Source: a virus
IMG/VR virus record: IMGVR_UViG_3300035670_002505
Span: 1-12,085 of that record
Strand: one strand, 5' to 3'
DNA: 12,085 bases
Positions 1 to 12,085 of this stretch are shown one piece after another. Both the position numbers and the translations under genes were made by a program. The notes beneath the pieces are model-generated. The model saw only the letters and a program-made list of their open reading frames with translations, was not told where the DNA came from and searched no databases. Every line of letters starts with the position of its first letter. The stretch's first letter is position 1.

Positions 1-127
1 CGCACACGCACGCACGCACGCACGCACGCACACGCACGCACGCACACGCACGCACGCACGGGCACGGCGAGGGCCCAGAAGGGCCCGAGCCAGATGAGCG
101 ACTCTTAAGGGGGGAGGTAGGTGGGGG
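1..127. repeat. Left copy of an exact 127-bp direct terminal repeat (identical to 11959..12085). Closes the sequence into an 11,958-bp unit.
   Basis: Hand alignment of 1..127 against 11959..12085 found no mismatch. This includes the irregular CGCA/CA repeat (1..60) and the unique part ggcacggcgagggcccagaagggcccgagccagatgagcgactcttaaggggggaggtaggtggggg (61..127). Confidence 0.95.
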
Positions 128-131
128 GTGG
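109..131 (+). repeat. G-rich tract GGGGGGAGGTAGGTGGGGGGTGG (possible G-quadruplex or protein-binding tract).
   Basis: Two G6 runs and three GG runs within 23 nt, non-coding. It contains a GTAGGT core at 117..122. Confidence 0.5.
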
Positions 132-243
132 AGCCGAGCCGCGAAAAATTATATTTTTCCTAGGCTCTCCCTAAAACTCCGTAACCCTCCCGTTACTTTA
201 AGTCTTCTTTACTTAAATTCTTTTCGTAACTATCTAGTTTATA

Positions 244-257
244 GAAAAGTTTATATA
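244..257 (+). promoter_or_regulatory. Archaeal-type BRE/TATA promoter P1 (GAAAAG-TTTATATA) for the RHH-terminase operon.
   Basis: Same GAAAnn + T/A-rich octamer as at 2167, 6411, 7751 and 9652. Here 40 nt, including a (TA)8 tract, separate the TATA from ATG 298, versus 21 nt at the other four. Confidence 0.55.
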
Positions 258-268
258 TATATATATAT
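252..268. repeat. (TA)8 dinucleotide repeat inside an almost pure A/T stretch (250..297).
   Basis: tatatatatatatatat read directly. It lies between the P1 TATA and the first start codon. Confidence 0.9.
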
Positions 269-297
269 CATATATATTATAGATATTATATATAAAG

Positions 298-2166: not shown

Positions 2167-2180
2167 GAAAGAATTAAATA
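2167..2180 (+). promoter_or_regulatory. Archaeal-type BRE/TATA promoter P2 (GAAAGA-ATTAAATA) for the portal/assembly operon.
   Basis: Starts 3 nt after the terL stop. The TATA ends exactly 21 nt before ATGG at 2202, the same spacing as at 6411, 7751 and 9652. Confidence 0.65.
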
Positions 2181-2201
2181 TAGGGATATACTTTAAAAAG
2201 G

Positions 2202-2333
2202 ATGGTAGATCTAAAAAAGATTAAGATAAAAGAAGAGGAGTTTGATGTTGAAGTAAGAGATTATATTTTTATTGAAACTATAAGAGAGTTAAGTAAATCT
2301 ATTGAGGCTCTGAGGTTAGCCAGCTTAAGATGA
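2202..2333 (+). CDS. Small hypothetical protein, 43 aa (not in the ORF track).
   Basis: MVDLKKIKIKEEEFDVEVRDYIFIETIRELSKSIEALRLASLR. The ATG sits at the conserved 21-nt distance from a BRE/TATA element. The stop overlaps the next start as ATGA. It fills an otherwise empty 165-nt gap. Confidence 0.5.
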   Translation: MVDLKKIKIKEEEFDVEVRDYIFIETIRELSKSIEALRLASLR

Positions 2334-2689: not shown

Positions 2690-3336
2690 TGGCGCAGTTA
2701 CCTACATTTTTTAATGAAAGCGGACAAGTAGCTCTAGCTAATTATGATTTTACTGATATAGCTGAAGGAACTGGAAATAGAGTTTTTTATTGTTTTACTT
2801 CTAAGCCTGGCGGAACTTTAACTTATCACTTAGGGCAAAATGCGATCGAAGTCGGCGGAGTTTCTGGAGATACTACTGACGGAGCAACTGAAAGAAGATT
2901 TTTATTTTCTAGCAATACGGCAACTTTTAGTTTATCTGCTTTTAATACTCCTCAAATAATACAAGGAACAGCTTATCTTAACTTTACTATTGTAACTTTA
3001 GGCGGTTATGGTGGAACTGCTACTATAACAGCTTCTATTTTAAAGAACTCGACAACTTTAGCAACTACAACAGCAACAGCGCCGACTTCTGCAACTGCGG
3101 TAAGAACTTATAATTTATCTTTAACAATTACTCAAACAGATTTTGCCGTCGGAGATGTTTTAAAAGTAGCGTTTGCCGTTAATGAGAGCGGACACGTTTG
3201 CCTAGAGCACGATCCAACTAATAGAAGCGCGGGATCTTCTTGGCTTATAGGTGGTAAAACACACCCAGCCGTAGATGCAACAGAAAACCCAACTAAATGT
3301 TTAGCTTATATACCCTTTAAGCTTAATCTTAACTAA
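2689..3336 (+). CDS. Thr/Ser/Ala-rich beta-type structural protein, 215 aa, function unknown.
   Basis: AGGTGG lies ~8 nt upstream. TAATG junctions on both sides. Composition (TTLATTTATAPTSATAV, alternating hydrophobic pattern) suggests a beta-sandwich virion protein. Confidence 0.6.
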   Translation: MAQLPTFFNESGQVALANYDFTDIAEGTGNRVFYCFTSKPGGTLTYHLGQNAIEVGGVSGDTTDGATERRFLFSSNTATFSLSAFNTPQIIQGTAYLNFTIVTLGGYGGTATITASILKNSTTLATTTATAPTSATAVRTYNLSLTITQTDFAVGDVLKVAFAVNESGHVCLEHDPTNRSAGSSWLIGGKTHPAVDATENPTKCLAYIPFKLNLN

Positions 3337-4439
3337 TGGCTATCTTAGATCACACACAAGGAAGCGTAACAGATTACGAGAATAATCTAACAGCCACGTC
3401 TATAAATCCTCAAAATACGGACGGAATAACAGCGGGAAAGGAAACTATTTACTCTAATTCACTCTGGGCTCAACACTGGGGATATTTTAATTCTTGCCCA
3501 GAGTTAAAATCTGCGATACTTATGAAAGCTATTTGGAACGTTGGTAAAGGTTATACAACTGATCCAGAAACTCAAATTATTCTAGATCATATTTCTGGCT
3601 GGGGAAAAGATACCTTCGAGGATATTCTTTTCAATATGGACGTTATTAGAAAAGTGGGTAGGGATAGTATAGCTCAAATTATAAGAGATAAAGAAACTGG
3701 AACTTTAATAAATCTTAAACCTTTAGATCCAGCGAGTATAAGATGGGTTGTAGATGAAAAAGGCATTATTATCCGATACGAGCAATTCGCTAAAACTGGC
3801 GATACTACGGAAGTTAAGAGAACTTTTAAGCCAGATGAAATATTCCACTTATCAAATAATAGGTTGGCTGATCAAATACACGGGATTAGTGTTATCGAGA
3901 GCCTAGATAGCACGCTTCTAGCAGAACTAGAGAGTTTTACGGATACAACTAAGCTTATGCATAGACAAGCTAAGCCTTTTATAGTTTTTAAGCTTAAAAC
4001 GGACGATCCAGTTAAAATAAGCGCTTTTCAAACTAAAATTCAAAATATAAGAGATAAAACTGAAGATTTAATCATCCCGGACGACGAGAATATATTATCT
4101 TATGAAGTAGTAAGCGTTCCAGTTTCATCCGTTATCCTAGACTGGAGAAACGACGTAACAAAGAGATTTTATAGGGCTCTAGGAATGCCTTTAGTTATCT
4201 TCGGAAGCGCTAACTCAACAGAGAGCGGCGGCAAGATGGAGTATTTTGCACACGAACAAGTATTCGAGCACGAGCAGAGATACCTAGAGAAACAGATTTA
4301 TAATCAATTAGGCTTAAGGATTAACTTATATCCGCCTACTTCTATGGCTCCTCAATTAGCTCAAGACACGGCTAAAGATGGCGGAGCTCAACAATTAAAC
4401 ACCCAGCCTAGCGACGCTATAGCTGGACGAGGTAAGTAA
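3336..4439 (+). CDS. Portal protein.
   Basis: 367 aa. The layout resembles the HK97-type Phage_portal family: CPELKSAILMKAIWNVGKGY, then GRDSIAQIIRDKETGTLINLKPLDPASI, then FHLSNNRLADQIHGISVIESL, then QAKPFIVFKL, then FYRALGMPLVIFG. It is in the same operon as the assembly genes. By-eye match only. Confidence 0.75.
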   Translation: MAILDHTQGSVTDYENNLTATSINPQNTDGITAGKETIYSNSLWAQHWGYFNSCPELKSAILMKAIWNVGKGYTTDPETQIILDHISGWGKDTFEDILFNMDVIRKVGRDSIAQIIRDKETGTLINLKPLDPASIRWVVDEKGIIIRYEQFAKTGDTTEVKRTFKPDEIFHLSNNRLADQIHGISVIESLDSTLLAELESFTDTTKLMHRQAKPFIVFKLKTDDPVKISAFQTKIQNIRDKTEDLIIPDDENILSYEVVSVPVSSVILDWRNDVTKRFYRALGMPLVIFGSANSTESGGKMEYFAHEQVFEHEQRYLEKQIYNQLGLRINLYPPTSMAPQLAQDTAKDGGAQQLNTQPSDAIAGRGK

Positions 4440-6296: not shown

Positions 6297-6421
6297 TTAC
6301 CGAGCTAGGAATAATTTATTTATCTATTTTAGCGACGATAGGCCTAGTAGTTAAGATTTTTCAACTCTGGCGAGAAGGTAAGTTTAGTTATTCGTTTAAA
6401 CGAATAAAACGAAAAGTTTAA
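6293..6421 (+). CDS. Small membrane protein, 42 aa (not in the ORF track).
   Basis: MITELGIIYLSILATIGLVVKIFQLWREGKFSYSFKRIKRKV has one TM helix plus a basic tail. ATGA overlap with the upstream stop. Its 3' end carries the 20-bp palindrome and the BRE of the capsid promoter. Confidence 0.45.
   Translation: MITELGIIYLSILATIGLVVKIFQLWREGKFSYSFKRIKRKV
6388..6407. promoter_or_regulatory. Perfect 20-bp palindrome TTATTCG-TTTAAA-CGAATAA, 3 nt upstream of the capsid promoter BRE. Candidate operator.
   Basis: The sequence equals its own reverse complement (checked base by base). The same 7-nt arms with the same 6-nt spacing recur at 11728..11747. Confidence 0.6.
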
Positions 6422-6424
6422 ATA
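6411..6424 (+). promoter_or_regulatory. Archaeal-type BRE/TATA promoter P3 (GAAAAG-TTTAAATA) for the decoration and major capsid genes.
   Basis: The TATA ends exactly 21 nt before ATGG at 6446. There is no Shine-Dalgarno in between, which implies a leaderless mRNA. Confidence 0.7.
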
Positions 6425-6445
6425 GTAGCTATATCTATATTTCTT

Positions 6446-6856
6446 ATGGCTAACGAAGCAACAAAAATAAGATTATACGGAAACAACGGAGACGTTGCTG
6501 ATTTTACCATCGCTGATGGAACCGCTATTTCTGCTGGAGCATTATTAAAATTAACTGATCCAGATACAGCTATTATTTCTTCTGCTGCGAACGATGTTTG
6601 CGCTGGAATTGCTGCTTCAAGTAAAGAAGCTTCGGACGGATCCACAAGACTAGGCGTTTATACTAACGGAGACTTTAAGATGTATGCTAGCGGATCAATT
6701 ACAGCTGGACAAATGTTAGTCTCTGCTGCTGACGCTAATTTTCCTAACTACGTTAAAGCTCTTTTAACTGCTACGGCTTCTGGAGCTGCTATTATAGGTT
6801 ACGCTAAAGAGACGGCTTCGGCTGGAGAAACTTTTGTAGCGAGGATAAGATTATAA
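6446..6856 (+). CDS. Head decoration/cement-like protein (DUF2190-like).
   Basis: 136 aa, Ala/Gly/Ser-rich. The pattern (AISAGALLKL, VCAGIAASS, GDFKMYASGSITAGQMLV, AIIGYAKETASAGETFVARI) resembles DUF2190 proteins commonly found next to HK97-type capsid genes. By-eye match only. Confidence 0.55.
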   Translation: MANEATKIRLYGNNGDVADFTIADGTAISAGALLKLTDPDTAIISSAANDVCAGIAASSKEASDGSTRLGVYTNGDFKMYASGSITAGQMLVSAADANFPNYVKALLTATASGAAIIGYAKETASAGETFVARIRL

Positions 6857-6857
6857 A

Positions 6858-7751
6858 ATGGTATATCAAACAACAGAAAACACTAATATTAGAAAGGAAA
6901 TAATAGACGGAACACTAAGACAAATAATACCTAAGAAATTCGTTTTTAGGCAAGCTTTAAGCGTTGTTTCAACTGGAGCTTGGAAAAATACCTTCTGGAG
7001 AGAAAACACAGCTACTTTAACTGGAGTTACTACAACTGGAATAACAAGAAATTCTTTTAAAGAAATTGGTAGAGGAGCAGAGTTTCCTAACGCTTCGGCT
7101 TCTTGGGAAGAAGTAAGCACAAGGATCTTAAAATTCGGAGCTCAAGATGTTTTGCAGTGGGAAGATGTTTTATCTGATAACGTTAATATTGAAGCTAGAA
7201 CTATCGAAAAAATAGCCGAGGGAGTAGCTTCTGCTGAAGATACTTATATCTGGAATACTCTTACTGAAAATAGAAGCCCGACAAATATTCAAAGCGTAGC
7301 TATTACAGCTACTCAACACTGGACTGGAGCTTCTGCTGCTATCTTCGATAACATTATGCAAGGAAAAGAAAAGCTTAAAGATTTCAATTACGATACTTCA
7401 AACGTTATAGTTTTTATTTCTCAAAGAGACGAGAGAGCGATAACAAAATGGGTAACTGATAAAGGAGCTCAATTTAACAGCATATCACAAGGAACAGCCT
7501 TAAACGGCCAAGTGCCTGGACTAGCTGGAGTTAGATTTGTAGTTTCTCCTAACGTTACAGCTTCTTACGCTTTAATGGTTATCCCTCAAAGGTGCGCAAC
7601 TCTTAGAGAACTAGAAAGTTTAAAGACTGATGTTACTGATGATCCAGGAAATACAAGAAGAATAAGAGCTTGGGAACAAATTTTAGTAGAACTTAACGAG
7701 CCTAAGGCTATTGTCTTATTCTCTAATACTCAAGGGCCTGGAACAGAGTAG
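6858..7751 (+). CDS. Major capsid protein, HK97 fold.
   Basis: 297 aa. GRGAEFPNASASWEEVSTRILKFGAQDVLQWEDVLSDNVNIEARTIEKIAEGVASAEDTYIWN resembles the Phage_capsid core (EGa.kp.s..f..v...v.kia....is.e.l.D...). The C-terminal block is GLAGVRFVVSPN...ALMV. It sits behind its own strong promoter. Confidence 0.88.
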   Translation: MVYQTTENTNIRKEIIDGTLRQIIPKKFVFRQALSVVSTGAWKNTFWRENTATLTGVTTTGITRNSFKEIGRGAEFPNASASWEEVSTRILKFGAQDVLQWEDVLSDNVNIEARTIEKIAEGVASAEDTYIWNTLTENRSPTNIQSVAITATQHWTGASAAIFDNIMQGKEKLKDFNYDTSNVIVFISQRDERAITKWVTDKGAQFNSISQGTALNGQVPGLAGVRFVVSPNVTASYALMVIPQRCATLRELESLKTDVTDDPGNTRRIRAWEQILVELNEPKAIVLFSNTQGPGTE

Positions 7752-7764
7752 AAACATATTTATA
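7751..7764 (+). promoter_or_regulatory. Archaeal-type BRE/TATA promoter P4 (GAAACA-TATTTATA) for the tail-fibre operon.
   Basis: Overlaps the last base of the capsid gene stop codon. The TATA ends exactly 21 nt before ATGG at 7786. Confidence 0.65.
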
Positions 7765-7785
7765 GTTGTTATTTCTTAATTTATT

Positions 7786-9171
7786 ATGGGTGGCTGGAGC
7801 AACGATAATCGTGATACAATAGAATGGGATGGATCTATAAAAGTTAAAAATAAATTTATTGGTGACGGATCACAATTAACAAATTTACCCATAGACTTCG
7901 GAGCTGCTTATGAAATACCGACGACAAACACGACTTCTGACAATTTTATTTATTCTTCAAAATTTACACACGACGGAGACGGCGGTATAAGTATAGGCGG
8001 ATTAAGTTTAAACAACAGCGAAGCATTAAAAATATATAAATTACAAACAGCATTAAGCGGTAATAGTTATGGTATTAACGTAGCGCCAACAGCACAACCA
8101 GCAAGCAACAGCACGGGTATTTTTACGGGAGCTAGAACTTCTATAACTGCCGAGGGATCTTCAACTATTACAAGATTAACGGGCGGATATTTCCAAGTTT
8201 ATAATAATAATAGTGCTACAAGTGGGAACGGATTAGCACAAGCCTTTGGCGGGCATTTTATAATCACTAACGCCTCAACGGGCAAGATTAATTCTATGGT
8301 ATGCGGAAGATTTGGGGTAGAAAATTTATCCACGGGATTAGTTAATAATACTTATGGTTGTGGTATTTTTAGGCCGGTAGGAACGGCGGGCGGAACTTAT
8401 GTCAATATGTATGGCTTATACATGGAAGATCAAACTCCCACGGCGGGTAGTATGAGTAATACGCCTTATGCTATATATCAAGCGGGAACAACTAATAAAA
8501 ACTATTTTGGCGGGTTAATTGGTATTGGAACAACAAATCCAAGCGAAGTTTTAGATGTTATAGGAGATATAGAAGTAAGTGCGGATATACATAACCTCGC
8601 AGATAACGGGAAACATTACTTCGGAGCTTCTGACGACGCTTCTATTTATTACGACGGAACTGATTTAATTTTAAATGGAAAGGAAGTAGGAACGGGCGGA
8701 GTAAGGCCAATAAGTAGGTTAATCGTTCCTATGGGTGAGATATCCTATTTTGACACTACGGGAACTACTATAAGTATTGCTTCAACTTCGGACGGATCAA
8801 CAAATATGGTTGTTGTTAATCCAACAACAGCATTAAGCACAAGTTACGAGTTTGACAACGGCGGATCAAACAACGGACGTTTAAGATATACGGGAACTAC
8901 TACTAAAATGTTTCATATTGCTTGCACGATTAGCATAGCAAGCACGGCAGCTAACGATTTATTTGTTTTTGGGGTTGCTAAAAATGGTAGTGTTGTGGCG
9001 GCGAGTAAAGTTTTAATGAAAGTTATAGGCGCAGCAGATACGCAAAGCACGGCTTTACACCTTATGGTAGAGATGGCTACTAATGATTACTTAGAATTGT
9101 ATGTTGGAAACACAACGGATACTGATGATTTGGTAGTCAAGACTTTAAATTTATTTGCAATGGGTATGTAA
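7786..9171 (+). CDS. Tail fibre / receptor-binding protein with a C-terminal C1q/TNF-like jelly-roll domain.
   Basis: The N-terminal FIGDGSQLTNLP and the central GLIGIGTTNPSEVLDVIGDI and ASIYYDGTDLIL motifs are typical of phage tail fibres. The last ~130 aa (GRLRYTGTTTKMFHIACTISIAS...VAKNGSVVAAS...NDYLELYVGN...LNLFAMG) fits the C1q/TNF-like pattern. Confidence 0.8.
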   Translation: MGGWSNDNRDTIEWDGSIKVKNKFIGDGSQLTNLPIDFGAAYEIPTTNTTSDNFIYSSKFTHDGDGGISIGGLSLNNSEALKIYKLQTALSGNSYGINVAPTAQPASNSTGIFTGARTSITAEGSSTITRLTGGYFQVYNNNSATSGNGLAQAFGGHFIITNASTGKINSMVCGRFGVENLSTGLVNNTYGCGIFRPVGTAGGTYVNMYGLYMEDQTPTAGSMSNTPYAIYQAGTTNKNYFGGLIGIGTTNPSEVLDVIGDIEVSADIHNLADNGKHYFGASDDASIYYDGTDLILNGKEVGTGGVRPISRLIVPMGEISYFDTTGTTISIASTSDGSTNMVVVNPTTALSTSYEFDNGGSNNGRLRYTGTTTKMFHIACTISIASTAANDLFVFGVAKNGSVVAASKVLMKVIGAADTQSTALHLMVEMATNDYLELYVGNTTDTDDLVVKTLNLFAMGM

Positions 9172-9651: not shown

Positions 9652-9665
9652 GAAAGATTTAAATA
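9652..9665 (+). promoter_or_regulatory. Archaeal-type BRE/TATA promoter P5 (GAAAGA-TTTAAATA) for the small-ORF module.
   Basis: The TATA ends exactly 21 nt before ATGG at 9687. Confidence 0.7.
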
Positions 9666-9686
9666 CTTACTTACTTAGTGTTTATT

Positions 9687-9866
9687 ATGGAAACAGAATT
9701 TAAAACTCCTCAACTGGAGACAACAACGGAAAGCTTAAAGTTAATTAAGAATACTAAAGGCTACAACTGGGAAATAAAACTCTTATCTTTAGATATTGAG
9801 AAATTAACAGAATTAAATAATGAGATGATCGCGCGCTTCGGATCTGGGAGTTTAACAGATGAATGA
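9687..9866 (+). CDS. Hypothetical protein, 59 aa.
   Basis: ATG 9687 (METEFKTPQ...) is chosen over the GTG at 9678 because of the conserved promoter-to-ATG spacing. Confidence 0.6.
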   Translation: METEFKTPQLETTTESLKLIKNTKGYNWEIKLLSLDIEKLTELNNEMIARFGSGSLTDE

Positions 9867-11349: not shown

Positions 11350-11455
11350 AGACTTATCTGGATGGCTTAAGCTAGCTATCGTAACTGGCTGGATATTAGC
11401 CTTTTATTGTATGATAGCTTTTAGTCTAGGCTTTATCTGGGCATTGTTTGCTTAA
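11336..11455 (+). CDS. Small hydrophobic membrane protein, 39 aa (not in the ORF track).
   Basis: MIKYKDLSGWLKLAIVTGWILAFYCMIAFSLGFIWALFA. Overlaps the previous gene by 14 nt. It is the last ORF before the terminators. Confidence 0.4.
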   Translation: MIKYKDLSGWLKLAIVTGWILAFYCMIAFSLGFIWALFA

Positions 11456-11477
11456 ATAGATAGATTTATTTACTTTG

Positions 11478-11485
11478 TTTTTTTT
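11478..11485 (+). terminator. T8 run, an archaeal-type oligo-T terminator after the last gene.
   Basis: tttgttttttttatg lies 23 nt after the final stop codon. Confidence 0.5.
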
Positions 11486-11509
11486 ATGAGGCTAATCACC
11501 TCTTTTTAT

Positions 11510-11552
11510 CCCACTCCGCTGGAGGAGTGGGGCTTACTCTTTCTTAATTTTT
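11510..11552 (+). terminator. Hairpin (8-bp stem CCCACTCC / GGAGTGGG, 6-nt loop) followed by T-rich sequence ending in T5.
   Basis: Stem arms 11510..11517 and 11524..11531 are exact complements. Downstream is gcttactctttcttaattttt. Confidence 0.5.
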
Positions 11553-11592
11553 CGTGTGTTTCCTCGATGTATTGAGGATTGATGTGTCTTTC

Positions 11593-11618
11593 CGCGCTCG
11601 CCCTTCTGGGCTCGCGCG
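11593..11618. repeat. GC-rich hairpin element CGCGC-TC-GCCC-TTCT-GGGC-TC-GCGCG, an inverted copy of the element at 68..90 / 12026..12048.
   Basis: The reverse complement of its core is GCGAG-CCCAGAAGGG-CGAGC. The other copy reads GCGAG-GG-CCCAGAAGGG-CC-CGAGC. Confidence 0.7.
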
Positions 11619-11725
11619 TTAGTTTTATATACTTCATTTACTTATAAAAGGCGTAGCCTTTTACAGCGTCGCACTCATTCTCAAACGTAACGGGCGGATC
11701 ACACACGGGGCGAAGGCGCGGACTG

Positions 11726-11749
11726 AGTTATTCGGATAACCGAATAACT
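11726..11749. promoter_or_regulatory. Inverted repeat AGTTATTCGG-ATAA-CCGAATAACT with core TTATTCG-N6-CGAATAA. Second copy of the candidate operator.
   Basis: The 10-nt arms are exact complements. Half-sites and spacing are identical to the palindrome at 6388..6407. Confidence 0.6.
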
Positions 11750-11762
11750 TTTCCACTGGAAA

Positions 11763-11791
11763 CGTAGGTTAGCATACCTTTATTTCCTATG
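11763..11791 (+). repeat. Iteron R1: CGTAGGTTAGCATACCTTTATTTCCTATG.
   Basis: 24 of 29 positions match R2 at 11849..11877 (86-nt periodicity). Contains AGGT...ACCT dyad symmetry. Confidence 0.7.
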
Positions 11792-11848
11792 CGTATAAAC
11801 GTGTCGAAACCCTCAAATTTGGGCGTTATAGCCAGTCTGGACAAGAAG

Positions 11849-11877
11849 CGTAGGTTAGACAACCTTCATTTCCTATG
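11849..11877 (+). repeat. Iteron R2: CGTAGGTTAGACAACCTTCATTTCCTATG.
   Basis: Direct imperfect repeat of R1. Both are preceded by CTGGA. Confidence 0.7.
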
Positions 11878-11893
11878 GAGCGCTTCGTTTGCA

Positions 11894-11907
11894 CGTAGGT
11901 AACCTTA
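11894..11907 (+). repeat. Partial iteron R3: CGTAGGTAACCTTA, inside the imperfect 21-bp palindrome GCACGTAGGTAACCTTAGTGC.
   Basis: Shares the CGTAGGT core and the AGGT/ACCT dyad with R1 and R2. Confidence 0.55.
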
Positions 11908-11946
11908 GTGCAAAGCCATAGATCGTTTCTCTTAGCCTTTACTCAC

Positions 11947-12018
11947 TACGCACGCACACGCACACGCACGCACGCACGCACGCACGCACACGCACGCACG
12001 CACACGCACGCACGCACG
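11947..12018. repeat. Imperfect (CGCA)n/(CA)n microsatellite, an uninterrupted alternating pyrimidine-purine tract of ~72 nt. A truncated copy lies at 1..60.
   Basis: Read directly: tacgcacgcacacgcacacgcacgcacg...cacg. Every position alternates Y-R from 11947 to 12018. The tract is non-coding. Confidence 0.9.
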
Positions 12019-12085
12019 GGCACGGCGAGGGCCCAGAAGGGCCCGAGCCAGATGAGCGACTCTTAAGGGGGGAGGTAGGTGGGGG
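11959..12085. repeat. Right copy of the exact 127-bp direct terminal repeat.
   Basis: Same alignment as for 1..127, at an offset of 11,958 nt. Confidence 0.95.

What the first reader, a model, noticed from the sequence alone, without database searches (positions are those of the whole stretch)
11456..12085. GC-rich non-coding island of about 0.8 kb in an AT-rich genome: probable ori and/or pac region
From the last stop (11455) to the first promoter (244, across the junction) there is no ORF of 60 aa or more on either strand. Composition shifts sharply. The 1..127 segment is about 70% GC by my hand count, against roughly one third in coding lines. The island packs many structured elements:
- two terminators
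- several exact hairpins (11510..11531, 11645..11663, 11726..11749)
- a pair of inverted GC hairpin elements
- GTAGGT iterons
- a 72-nt alternating Y-R tract
- a G-rich tract
- a GAAAAAT-tat-ATTTTTC dyad (143..159)
- a (TA)8/AT-only stretch that could act as an unwinding element
Iterons combined with an easily melted AT tract is the classic origin layout. Its position directly upstream of the RHH/terminase operon equally fits a packaging-recognition region.
Basis: partly seen in the sequence, partly recalled or inferred. Interest (0 to 1): 0.62.

Follow-up and report, generated by a model that had tools for sequence, protein, structure and literature searches.

The report
Host-type replication origin in tiny archaeal virus
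The 0.8-kb gene-free stretch of this 12-kb head-tailed virus carries the DNA boxes that archaeal cells use to mark their own replication origins, so the virus, which has no replication gene, probably borrows the host's initiator protein there; a packaging signal in the same stretch is possible but untested.

Summary
The window closes into an 11,958-bp circle. Positions 11456..12085 plus 128..297 form one 800-nt stretch with no ORF of 60 aa or more. Its GC is 45% against 36% in coding DNA, with a 541-nt core at 53% and 1..127 at 72%.

- 11751-11769 reads TTCCACTGGAAACGTAGGT, against the published archaeal consensus CTTCCAGTGGAAACGAAAGGGGT.
- The boxes form three tail-to-tail pairs between 11751 and 11914.
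- In relatives not used to build the matrix, the box is about 20-fold enriched upstream of the terminase gene.
- In five of five Nanoarchaeota genomes examined, the box lies within about 200 nt of an orc1/cdc6 gene.
- No initiator gene was found in the window, in mid-sized ORFs of 22 relatives, or in six relatives' precomputed gene tables.

Best reading (0.6): a replication origin that recruits host Orc1/Cdc6. It is embedded in a control region with terminators, a regulator palindrome, a variable microsatellite, a conserved "twin-G box" and the first-operon promoter(s).

This scan has already noted the same kind of ORB-bearing control region on other small archaeal virus genomes.

The parts
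11456..11555 (+). Transcription-termination zone behind the last gene. It holds a T8 run at 11479-11486, hairpin 11509-11532 followed by T-rich DNA, and a T5 run near 11548.
   Evidence: Sequence; terminator-like scan found 4 sites against 0.8 expected. The termination role is inferred.
11594..11617 (.). GC hairpin A: GCGC-TC-GCCC ttct GGGC-TC-GCGC. It is an inverted copy of hairpin B.
   Evidence: I1 (arms 11600-11617 and 12025-12042, 18 nt, 89% complementary); fold.
11645..11663 (.). 8-bp hairpin TAAAAGGC gta GCCTTTTA.
   Evidence: Sequence; present in both folds.
11726..11749 (.). Operator-like perfect palindrome AGTTATTCGG ataa CCGAATAACT, 1 nt upstream of the first ORB. Candidate binding site of a dimeric viral regulator.
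   Evidence: I4. TTATTCG-N6-CGAATAA occurs only twice in the genome, against 0.00 expected. Near-identical palindromes or half-sites occur in L066, L108, L014/L015, L081, L020 and L019 and L003.
11751..11769 (+). ORB 1 (strong): TTCCACTGGAAACGTAGGT.
   Evidence: Zero mismatches to the literature-derived pattern TCCASTKGAAAYRNAGG; matrix score 28.1; compare the published consensus ORBs.
11776..11794 (-). Degenerate ORB-like box (ACGCATAGGAAATAAAGGT on the minus strand), tail-to-tail with ORB 1 across a 6-nt spacer.
   Evidence: Direct repeat family D3; read by eye against the matrix consensus; scores below threshold.
11832..11855 (+). Degenerate ORB-like box ending in GCGTAGGT; first half of the second tail-to-tail pair.
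   Evidence: Repeat D3, 85% identical to the first unit; inference.
11862..11880 (-). ORB 2 (strong): CTCCATAGGAAATGAAGGT on the minus strand.
   Evidence: 2 mismatches; matrix score 20.7. The identical 19-mer AACCTTCATTTCCTATGGA occurs in L081. The same CCATAGGAAA variant occurs at Nanoarchaeota origins.
11888..11914 (.). Third pair: palindrome TTTGCACGTAGGT a ACCTTAGTGCAAA. The AGGT/ACCT tails are kept and the dyads are replaced by GCAC/GTGC.
   Evidence: I3. Similar sequences in L107 and L081 and L106. CCTAAGTG is enriched 11:1 upstream of TerL.
11947..12018 (.). (ACGC/AC)n microsatellite, 72 nt of alternating pyrimidine-purine.
   Evidence: Family-wide, short-period arrays occur at 4.48 per 10 kb upstream of TerL against 0.6 elsewhere, with different units in different genomes.
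12024..12049 (.). GC hairpin B: GGC-GA-GGGCCC agaa GGGCCC-GA-GCC (also present at 66-91).
   Evidence: I1; fold.
96..159 (+). Twin-G box module: GAGCGAC..TTAAGGGGGG-aggtaggt-GGGGGGTGGAG..CGAAAAATTATATTTTTC. Its first part also stands at 12054-12085. Candidate packaging signal or promoter-upstream element.
   Evidence: nhmmer model. It is on the + strand and upstream of TerL in 13 loci counting the window, E 1.6e-13 to 4.7e-4. No conserved RNA fold.
143..156 (+). It is positionally equivalent to the first-operon TATA box of relatives.
   Evidence: Comparison with L081, L067, L056, L070 and L109; inference only, and no ATG follows at 21 nt.
244..297 (+). BRE/TATA (GAAAAG TTTATATA, 244-257) plus an A/T-only stretch that includes (TA)n, up to the first start codon at 298. 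Promoter of the first operon and possible unwinding element.
   Evidence: ATAGAAAAGTTTATATAT recurs in relatives. TATATATATA is enriched 15:0 upstream of TerL.
6388..6407 (.). Second copy of the palindrome TTATTCG-N6-CGAATAA, 3 nt upstream of the BRE of the decoration/capsid promoter. It links the island to late-gene control.

Best explanation
The island is the single non-coding control region of a roughly 12-kb tailed virus of archaea. Its core, 11751-11914, is most likely a replication origin of the archaeal ORB type.

Structure of the core: two well-matching and three degenerate origin recognition boxes, arranged as three tail-to-tail pairs.

Proposed mechanism: the host's own Orc1/Cdc6 initiator binds these boxes. 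It then loads the host MCM helicase on nearby easily melted DNA. The virus encodes no initiator, helicase, primase or polymerase.

Elements around this core:
- oligo-T and hairpin terminators of the last operon
- a palindrome shared with the capsid promoter, presumably bound by a viral regulator
- a hypervariable microsatellite
- two inverted GC hairpins
- a conserved "twin-G box"
- one or two BRE/TATA promoters for the first operon, which holds a putative RHH gene and the terminase gene

Shown here: the sequence identity of the boxes to cellular ORBs, their conservation and position, and the lack of viral replication genes.

Inferred: Orc1/Cdc6 binding, origin firing, which DNA melts, and every role assigned to the other elements.
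For: 1. Match to published ORBs. 11751-11769 TTCCACTGGAAACGTAGGT matches the archaeal consensus CTTCCAGTGGAAACGAAAGGGGT and Methanomassiliicoccales ORBs such as TTTCCACTGGAAACAG-AGGGGT (PMC4153887). It also matches the Ori-Finder 2 common motif (PMC4164010) and the Pyrococcus mini-ORB TTCCAGTGGAACT (PMC1904270). The literature-derived pattern TCCASTKGAAAYRNAGG gives 3 hits in the window at up to 2 mismatches against 0.04 expected, and two of them lie in the island.

2. Conservation in the virus family. The matrix gives 52 hits in 641 kb of relatives against 2-5 in shuffles. In loci not used to build it, there are 31 hits in 95.9 kb upstream of TerL against 4 in 254 kb elsewhere, with 1-6 copies per genome. 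An unbiased k-mer screen picks the same core: TTCCACTGGA 10:0, TTCCTGTGGA 7:0, TTCCTATGGA 11:1.

3. The box is archaeal. The exact box TTCCASTGGAAAYGTAGGT occurs at 14 places in one genome each of 185,579 species, and 8 of those are archaeal records. From my own knowledge archaea are only a few percent of that collection; this share was not checked here.

4. The box marks cellular origins. In the Nanoarchaeota genome L115 it lies 112 nt from an orc1/cdc6 gene, as one of a pair of inverted ORBs around an AT-rich stretch. The relaxed viral-type box occurs in 16 of 301 Nanoarchaeota genomes, against 0 for the reversed control. In all four further sites examined an orc1/cdc6 gene lies within about 200 nt. 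In Methanolobus two inverted copies flank the end of a D5-like primase-helicase gene.

5. No viral initiator found. There is no Orc1/Cdc6, MCM, primase, polymerase or Rep hit in the window's ORFs, in 143 ORFs of 22 relatives, or in the gene tables of six relatives.

6. Archaeal host. Four BRE/TATA-N21-ATGG promoters are found against 0 expected.

7. Not coding and not a known RNA. No conserved small ORF and no Rfam or tRNA hit.
Against:
- The boxes lack the canonical GGGGT G-string. The full published patterns give no hit at up to 3 mismatches.
- Only 15 of 34 relatives with at least 1.5 kb of upstream sequence show a box at the chosen threshold.
- The two strong boxes face each other tail-to-tail, the opposite of the dyads-inward arrangement around the AT-rich element in L115.
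- The nearest A/T-only stretch is 322 nt away, and family-wide proximity to AT tracts is weak: median 224 nt against 344 nt for random positions.
- GC skew turns at the island, but all genes point one way, so this says nothing.
- Orc1/Cdc6-like proteins and other winged-helix proteins also act as transcription regulators, so the boxes could be regulatory sites.
- The Pfam screen of relatives skipped ORFs of 281-479 aa, the size range of Orc1/Cdc6. That range was covered only for the window and, through precomputed tables, for six relatives.
Confidence: 0.6

Rival explanations
1. Packaging-recognition region (pac or cos). The terminase holoenzyme recognises and cuts concatemers here. The twin-G box module (96-159), or the GC hairpins, would be the signal. 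This is not exclusive of an origin in the same island.
For: The island lies directly upstream of the small-ORF/TerL operon. The twin-G box is single-copy, always on the gene strand in the closer relatives, and always between the ORB cluster and the first gene or TerL. It is preceded by AGCGAGC-type repeats that are enriched in the family (GAGCGAAGCG 7:0). GC-rich cohesive-end sites are common in phages (my own knowledge).
Against: No small terminase is recognisable. In relatives the box keeps a fixed distance of 20-45 nt upstream of the BRE/TATA of the first operon, which fits a promoter element just as well. Contig break points of the circularly assembled relatives are scattered around the genome, so no fixed ends are visible (overlaps and the TerL positions). 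An 18.3-kb contig holds more than one unit length. No read-start data are available.
Confidence: 0.2
2. Purely transcriptional control region. The ORB-like boxes, the palindrome and the twin-G box would be operator or activator sites for viral or host transcription factors that switch early and late operons. Replication would start elsewhere or by another route such as recombination-dependent replication.
For: The island ends in the first-operon promoter. The palindrome 11728-11747 recurs exactly at the capsid promoter. The twin-G box is positioned relative to TATA boxes. The first gene looks RHH-like by eye, though it has no profile hit.
Against: The boxes match cellular ORBs over 17-19 nt and occur immediately beside orc1/cdc6 genes in DPANN genomes. 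They vary in number from 1 to 6 and in orientation, as ORB clusters do. No other candidate origin and no replication gene is present in 12 kb.
Confidence: 0.12
3. The GC-rich core encodes a structured non-coding RNA, as GC-rich islands in AT-rich genomes often do.
For: GC is 0.53 in the core against 0.36 in the coding part. Segment 11560-11760 folds with z -4.0. A TATA-like TTTTATATA stands at 11625-11633.
Against: No Rfam hit at E up to 1 in the island. The opposite strand folds even better (z -5.1), as expected of DNA palindromes. Segment 1-240 is not structured (z -0.46). The GC-rich parts are not conserved in sequence among relatives. The twin-G module shows no consensus fold or covariation. 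The TATA-like site lacks the GAAA BRE of the four genuine promoters.
Confidence: 0.04
4. Bacterial-type origin: DnaA boxes, or iterons bound by a plasmid-like Rep protein, in a phage of an AT-rich bacterium.
For: TTTTCCACT resembles a DnaA box with one mismatch.
Against: TTWTNCACA occurs once, inside a gene, against 0.88 expected, and never in the island. The conserved part of the box extends to TGGAAAyrnAGGT, and CCATAGGAAA variants lack CACA. No Rep or DnaA-related gene is present. The promoters are of the archaeal BRE/TATA type.
Confidence: 0.01

Closest known systems
Cellular archaeal oriC1-type origins: ORB elements bound by Orc1/Cdc6, as in Pyrococcus, Sulfolobus, Methanomassiliicoccales and the Nanoarchaeota loci L115 and L131-L134
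   Same: Same box: dyad TTCCA(s)TGGAAA plus a purine-rich AGG tail. Several copies in both orientations, lying in a non-coding stretch that also contains AT-rich DNA.
   Different: No orc1/cdc6 gene is adjacent or anywhere in the genome. The G-string is shortened to AGGT. The boxes are paired tail-to-tail with 1-6 nt between the tails, instead of flanking the unwinding element dyads-inward. The nearest A/T-only stretch is 322 nt away. The cluster is embedded in GC hairpins, a microsatellite and a twin-G box not seen at L115.
ORB-bearing integrated or extrachromosomal elements of methanogens: Methanolobus locus L124 with a D5-like primase-helicase, and Methanocella locus L122 beside an integrase
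   Same: The identical 19-nt box sits on a mobile element, in L124 as an inverted pair 350 nt apart.
   Different: Those elements carry their own replication or integration gene next to the boxes. This virus has neither.
Phage pac/cos regions upstream of the terminase genes (lambda cos, P22 and SPP1 pac; from my own knowledge)
   Same: The position immediately upstream of the packaging operon. One orientation-fixed single-copy element, the twin-G box, preceded by short repeats.
   Different: No recognisable small terminase, no mapped ends, no sequence similarity. The box keeps register with a promoter.
Other roughly 12-kb tailed archaeal virus genomes noted earlier in this scan (for example e1-3280088, e1-3419515, e1-3433861, e1-3446339)
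   Same: By those notes: a gene-free control region with host-type ORB boxes, archaeal promoters and no replication genes.
   Different: They are different genomes, and I did not examine them. Here the island has an unusually GC-rich core with a 72-nt (ACGC)n tract between the ORBs and the promoter.

Membership tests
Archaeal ORB / Orc1-Cdc6 origin (oriC1 type) | Sequence match to the ORB consensus: dyad TCCA..GGAAA plus a G-rich 3' part | tested here: met
   11752-11768 has 0 mismatches to TCCASTKGAAAYRNAGG, and 11863-11879 has 2; there are 3 hits against 0.04 expected. Caveat: the full consensus including GGGGT is not matched at up to 3 mismatches. The same short AGGT(G)T tail occurs at Nanoarchaeota origins.
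Archaeal ORB / Orc1-Cdc6 origin (oriC1 type) | Several ORBs clustered in an intergenic region, including inverted copies | tested here: met
   Two strong and three degenerate boxes lie in 164 nt (11751-11914), in both orientations. Relatives carry 1-6 copies.
Archaeal ORB / Orc1-Cdc6 origin (oriC1 type) | AT-rich unwinding element flanked by the ORBs | tested here: inconclusive
   The A/T-only stretch 244-297 is 322 nt from the nearest box and is not flanked by boxes. Family-wide proximity is weak. Some relatives (L106, L006, L009, L087) do have boxes within 0-27 nt of an AT tract.
Archaeal ORB / Orc1-Cdc6 origin (oriC1 type) | Adjacent cognate initiator gene (orc1/cdc6 or whiP) | tested here: not met
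   No Cdc6, MCM or other initiator domain was found in any window ORF or in relatives. The claim is therefore "works like an ORB origin using the host's initiator", not "a replicator-initiator pair".
Archaeal ORB / Orc1-Cdc6 origin (oriC1 type) | Orc1/Cdc6 binding and initiation of replication at the site | not testable with these tools
   This needs EMSA or footprinting, marker-frequency analysis or 2D gels.
Phage packaging site (pac/cos) | Genome ends, or the first headful cut, map to the site | not testable with these tools
The assemblies are circular with scattered break points.
Phage packaging site (pac/cos) | Site lies in or next to the small-terminase gene and is bound by it | tested here: inconclusive
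   The island is directly upstream of the operon that ends in TerL, but none of the 72-90 aa ORFs matches a TerS profile.
Bacterial DnaA-box oriC or iteron/Rep plasmid origin | Cluster of DnaA boxes, or a Rep gene with its iterons | tested here: not met
   TTWTNCACA occurs once, in coding DNA, against 0.88 expected. No Rep or DnaA gene is present.
Described structured RNA family (Rfam) | Covariance-model match or conserved covarying structure | tested here: not met
   No Rfam hit in the island at E up to 1. No consensus structure for the conserved module. Fold scores are symmetric on both strands.

The most novel reading that the evidence does not exclude
A very large, globally distributed and essentially undescribed family of 10.5-12.5-kb tailed viruses replicates with no viral replication protein at all. 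TerL relatives number 1,664 at E <= 1e-20, and none in the 120 best-scoring rows listed sits on a contig longer than about 12.6 kb. The viruses would carry copies of the host chromosome's origin recognition boxes, probably those of DPANN (Nanoarchaeota-type) archaea. The conserved twin-G box would be a new kind of packaging or promoter-coupling signal that links origin, packaging and first-operon transcription in one 0.8-kb hub.
Probability: 0.4. Interest if true: 0.75.

Novelty: new variant of a known kind. Interest (0 to 1): 0.6.

Why it matters
- Host domain: the boxes assign an archaeal host to a huge uncultured family of miniature tailed viruses, using DNA signals alone.
- Replication with no viral replication gene: the boxes offer a concrete answer to how a 12-kb tailed virus can replicate, namely by mimicking the host origin. 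This gives a directly testable target: the 11726-11914 fragment against Orc1/Cdc6 from candidate DPANN hosts.
- Host prediction: if confirmed, viral ORB variants could be matched to cellular ORB variants to predict hosts of uncultured archaeal viruses.
- A new element: the twin-G box would be a conserved cis-element to study for packaging or promoter control.

Tried and rejected
- Rfam (E up to 1) and tRNA scans of the whole window gave nothing in the island. The weak whalefall-1 hit in L003 (E 0.0045, below the gathering score) was not pursued.
- Full published ORB patterns including the GGGGT G-string gave 0 hits at up to 3 mismatches in the window. The common pattern also gave 0 exact hits in all loci. 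Only the pattern truncated at AGG matches.
- DnaA boxes are at chance level and none lies in the island.
- No conserved small ORFs: 32 frames of 20 aa or more gave no tblastn hit in relatives.
- No RNA structure for the twin-G module.
- Searches for close relatives of the island to align it base by base failed. Megablast against phage records found none, and exact 29-mer and 18-mer scans of IMG/VR found none. The closest relative has 61% TerL identity (L106), so only short boxes can be compared.
- Host assignment by co-binning failed. TerL patterns found nothing in 185,579 species genomes. Only 3 weak TerL hits appeared in 401 Nanoarchaeota genomes. One 2.6-kb family contig is binned in a Methanomicrobia MAG, which is weak evidence.
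- The viral-type box is above control in Nanoarchaeota (16 of 301 genomes against 0) but not in Thermoplasmatota (4 of 121 against 4). This is a lead, not an assignment.
- ORB-to-AT-tract proximity is only weakly better than random.
- GC skew is uninformative because all genes share one strand.
- An invertible segment bounded by the two inverted GC hairpins was considered. It was dropped because no recombinase is encoded and the element order is the same in L106.
Full report
**What the window is.** The window is a whole IMG/VR virus record whose first 127 bases repeat its last 127 exactly. An overlap of 127 is probably an assembler k-mer length (my reading). Relatives show overlaps of 127, 123, 115, 99, 66 and 21 nt, with break points at different places relative to the terminase gene. 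One 18.3-kb contig carries the terminase gene and an ORB twice, 11,721 nt apart. I therefore read the genome as an 11,958-bp circle or a circularly permuted unit, not a linear genome with true terminal repeats.

All genes lie on the + strand:
- small ORFs at 298-917
- large terminase at 866-2164 (phrog_2, 2.8e-33)
- portal at 3336-4439
- decoration/cement protein at 6446-6856
- HK97-type capsid protein at 6858-7751
- fibre at 7786-9171
- a module of tiny ORFs up to the stop at 11455

**The observation.** Positions 11456..12085 plus 128..297 form one 800-nt stretch without any ORF of 60 aa or more. Its GC is 0.453 against 0.359 for the coding part. This is a composite: a 541-nt core at 0.532, with 1..127 at 0.717, followed by the most AT-rich DNA of the genome, 143-297 at 0.239.

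Segment 11560-11760 is more self-complementary than all 200 shuffles. It is so on both strands (z -4.0 and -5.1), which is what DNA palindromes give and what a strand-specific RNA would not. Segment 1-240 is unremarkable (z -0.46).

**What the iterons are.** Reading the repeats together with their flanks shows that each GTAGGT is the 3' end of a longer box. The best box, 11751-11769, reads TTCCACTGGAAACGTAGGT.

Published origin recognition boxes (ORBs), the binding sites of the archaeal initiator Orc1/Cdc6, read:
- CTTCCAGTGGAAACGAAAGGGGT, the archaeal consensus
- GTTCCAGTGGAAATGG-AGGGGTA, Methanomassiliicoccales, with individual sites such as TTTCCACTGGAAACAG-AGGGGT (PMC4153887, Table 2)
- TCCA[CG]T[TG]GAAA[TC][GA]AAGGGGT, the Ori-Finder 2 common motif (PMC4164010)
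- a Pyrococcus mini-ORB, TTCCAGTGGAACT, with TTCC and GAA as invariant cores (PMC1904270)

The full patterns, which include the GGGGT G-string, do not match the window within three mismatches. The viral boxes end in AGGT. The literature pattern cut at AGG (TCCASTKGAAAYRNAGG) gives three hits at up to 2 mismatches where 0.04 are expected. Two of them lie in the island: 11752 (+, 0 mismatches) and 11863 (-, 2 mismatches).

With three weaker copies, the boxes form three tail-to-tail pairs:
- TTCCACTGGAAACGTAGGT tagcat ACCTTTATTTCCTATGCG
- ..CTGGACAAGAAGCGTAGGT tagaca ACCTTCATTTCCTATGGAG
- TTTGCACGTAGGT a ACCTTAGTGCAAA

**Conservation in relatives.** The terminase protein retrieves a very large family: 1,664 proteins at E <= 1e-20. 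No contig in the 120 best-scoring rows listed exceeds about 12.6 kb. I fetched 23 viral and 80 metagenomic loci plus six further contigs.

- A position matrix built from ten boxes finds 52 hits in 641 kb against 2-5 in composition-preserving shuffles.
- In loci that did not contribute to the matrix there are 31 hits in 95.9 kb upstream of the terminase gene against 4 in 254 kb elsewhere, about 20-fold.
- Copy number per genome runs from 1 to 6.
- Fifteen of 34 loci with at least 1.5 kb of upstream sequence have at least one box, so it is common but not universal at this threshold.
- A k-mer screen that knows nothing about ORBs returns the same core among the most enriched 10-mers upstream of the terminase gene: TTCCACTGGA 10 loci against 0, TTCCTGTGGA 7:0, TTCCTATGGA 11:1. 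It also returns (TA)n (15:0), long G-runs and AGCGAGC-type repeats.

**Is the box really a cellular origin box?** I scanned one genome for each of 185,579 bacterial and archaeal species for the exact viral box TTCCASTGGAAAYGTAGGT. It occurs at 14 places, and 8 of them are archaeal records. From my own knowledge archaea make up only a few percent of the collection; I did not check this share here.

- In the Nanoarchaeota genome (L115) the box lies 112 nt from an orc1/cdc6 gene. It is one of a pair of inverted boxes around an AT-rich stretch, with the partner reading CTCCATAGGAAATATAGGTGT.
- A relaxed viral-type pattern (TCCANNGGAAAYRNAGGTKW) occurs in 16 of 301 sampled Nanoarchaeota genomes, with none for the reversed control.
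- In all four further sites I examined, an orc1/cdc6 gene lies within about 200 nt of the box.
- The same pattern is at control level in 121 Thermoplasmatota genomes, 4 against 4.
- In a Methanolobus genome two inverted copies flank the end of a D5-like primase-helicase gene. In Methanocella one copy lies beside an integrase gene.
- One archaeal hit is itself a 2.6-kb contig of this virus family (TerL 39% identical), binned in a Methanomicrobia MAG. It has three boxes upstream of its terminase gene.

**No viral initiator found, and an archaeal host.**
- No Orc1/Cdc6, MCM, primase, polymerase, Rep or DnaA domain appears in any window ORF.
- None appears among 143 further ORFs (110-280 aa or at least 480 aa) from 22 near-complete relatives, which yielded only structural proteins and nucleases. 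ORFs of 281-479 aa, the size range of Orc1/Cdc6, were left out of that screen.
- None appears in the precomputed gene tables of six relatives.
- Four promoters of the form GAAA-NN-(8-bp TATA)-N21-ATGG stand in front of the operon-first genes at 2202, 6446, 7786 and 9687, where none is expected by chance. This is the archaeal BRE/TATA layout with leaderless messages.
- DnaA boxes are at chance level and absent from the island.

**The rest of the island.**

(a) The perfect palindrome at 11726-11749 ends one base before the first ORB. Its core, TTATTCG-N6-CGAATAA, occurs only once more in the genome, 3 nt upstream of the BRE of the decoration/capsid promoter. Near-identical palindromes or half-sites occur in at least eight relatives. 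I read it as the site of a dimeric viral regulator. The first gene product looks ribbon-helix-helix-like by eye but has no profile hit.

(b) A "twin-G box" is conserved on the gene strand in 13 loci, counting the window. It reads GAGCGAC..TTAAGGGGGG-N3-8-GGGGGGT..ACAAAATTTT and occupies window 96-159. It always lies between the ORB cluster and the first gene or the terminase gene. Other relatives carry a related element on the other strand. In five relatives it ends 20-45 nt before the BRE/TATA box of the first operon. The module has no conserved RNA fold. It is the best candidate for an orientation-specific packaging signal, but a promoter-upstream element fits equally well.

(c) Short-period tandem repeats are 7.5-fold enriched upstream of the terminase gene across the family, and their unit differs from genome to genome: ACGC here, and TAC, ATAG, TCTA, GTAT, TTTC and TA elsewhere. 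The 72-nt (ACGC/AC)n tract is therefore one instance of a variable feature. I have no tested explanation for it.

(d) The GC hairpins and the GC-rich filler are not conserved in sequence, although G/C runs and GC-rich repeats of this kind recur. There are 105 runs of six or more G or C in 105 kb upstream against 34 in 284 kb elsewhere.

(e) No small ORF of the island is conserved in any relative.

**Mechanism proposed.** Host Orc1/Cdc6 binds the ORB pairs at 11751-11914 and recruits host MCM to nearby DNA, and host enzymes do the rest. The palindrome next to the first ORB, shared with the capsid promoter, could couple replication to late transcription. The twin-G box and promoter(s) start the packaging operon and may hold the packaging signal. 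Only the sequence-level statements are shown; binding, firing and melting are inferred.

**Weak points.**
- The G-string is missing.
- The tail-to-tail arrangement is the reverse of the dyads-inward arrangement at L115.
- The nearest A/T-only stretch is 322 nt away, with only weak family-wide support for ORB-to-AT proximity.
- Recognisable boxes are absent from about half of the relatives.
- The GC-skew turning point at the island is confounded by the uniform gene orientation.

**Novelty and context.** In the paper library I found no description of this virus family or of ORB clusters in a tailed virus lacking an initiator gene. One preprint looked for ORBs in an archaeal virus and found none. 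Within this scan the phenomenon has been noted repeatedly on other small archaeal virus genomes, and once in a follow-up on this genome's promoters. Those notes are unverified leads and I did not use them as evidence. My ORB reading was written down before I consulted them.

I class the finding as a new variant of a known kind: an ORB-type origin detached from its initiator gene and carried by a miniature tailed virus. The host lineage is unresolved. The box variants (CCATAGGAAA, AGGTGT tail) and the phylum comparison point to DPANN/Nanoarchaeota as a lead only.

Noticed in passing
window 2167-2205, 6411-6449, 7751-7789, 9652-9690: Four promoters of identical build: GAAA-NN, an 8-bp TATA box, exactly 21 nt, then ATGG. 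None is expected by chance. This is the archaeal BRE/TATA layout with leaderless first genes.
   Followed up: partly
window 6388-6407 and 11728-11747: The palindrome TTATTCG-N6-CGAATAA occurs only at the capsid-operon promoter and beside the first ORB. It is conserved in many relatives. The regulator that binds it is unknown.
   Followed up: partly
L098:2740-2965: Four tandem copies of a roughly 60-nt unit. Each holds a GC hairpin whose stem differs between copies but stays paired (GGGGGGCTCCGCCCC, GGGGGAGCTACGCTCCCC, GGGGGGGCAAGCCCCCC, GGGGGCTTCGCCCCC), followed by CTCCACCCC. The array lies in a 58% GC island of a 38% GC relative.
   Followed up: no
L082/L083 (contig Ga0222667_1000456, 18,348 nt): The terminase gene and an ORB occur twice on this contig, 11,721 nt apart. 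The contig is therefore a more-than-unit-length (concatemer-like) assembly of an 11.7-kb genome.
   Followed up: partly
L117 / L126 (2,590-nt contig in a Methanomicrobia MAG): A fragment of a family member (TerL 39% identical to the window's), with three ORBs, (TA)n and GC hairpins upstream of TerL, is binned in a methanogen MAG. This is weak host evidence because the contig is short.
   Followed up: partly
L124:7494-7863 (Methanolobus) and L122:2398 (Methanocella): The exact viral ORB variant occurs as an inverted pair beside a D5-like primase-helicase gene, and as a single copy beside an integrase gene. These are probably origins of integrated archaeal elements.
   Followed up: partly
L096, L031, L034, L016, L019, L073 (upstream of TerL): A related G-run element (CCCCCC-TTGA-GGGGGG-N-GGGGGGTG) lies on the opposite strand in these more distant relatives. 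The twin-G module is therefore not orientation-fixed across the whole family.
   Followed up: no
window 11591-11604 and 11707-11722: A further long-range inverted repeat (CCGCGCTCGCCC / GGGGCGAAGGCGCGG) encloses hairpin 11645-11663 and the TATA-like TTTTATATA at 11625-11633.
   Followed up: no
L108:1159-1584 and other relatives: Some family members carry RusA, staphylococcal-nuclease-like or HNH nuclease genes just upstream of TerL. The window has none.
   Followed up: no
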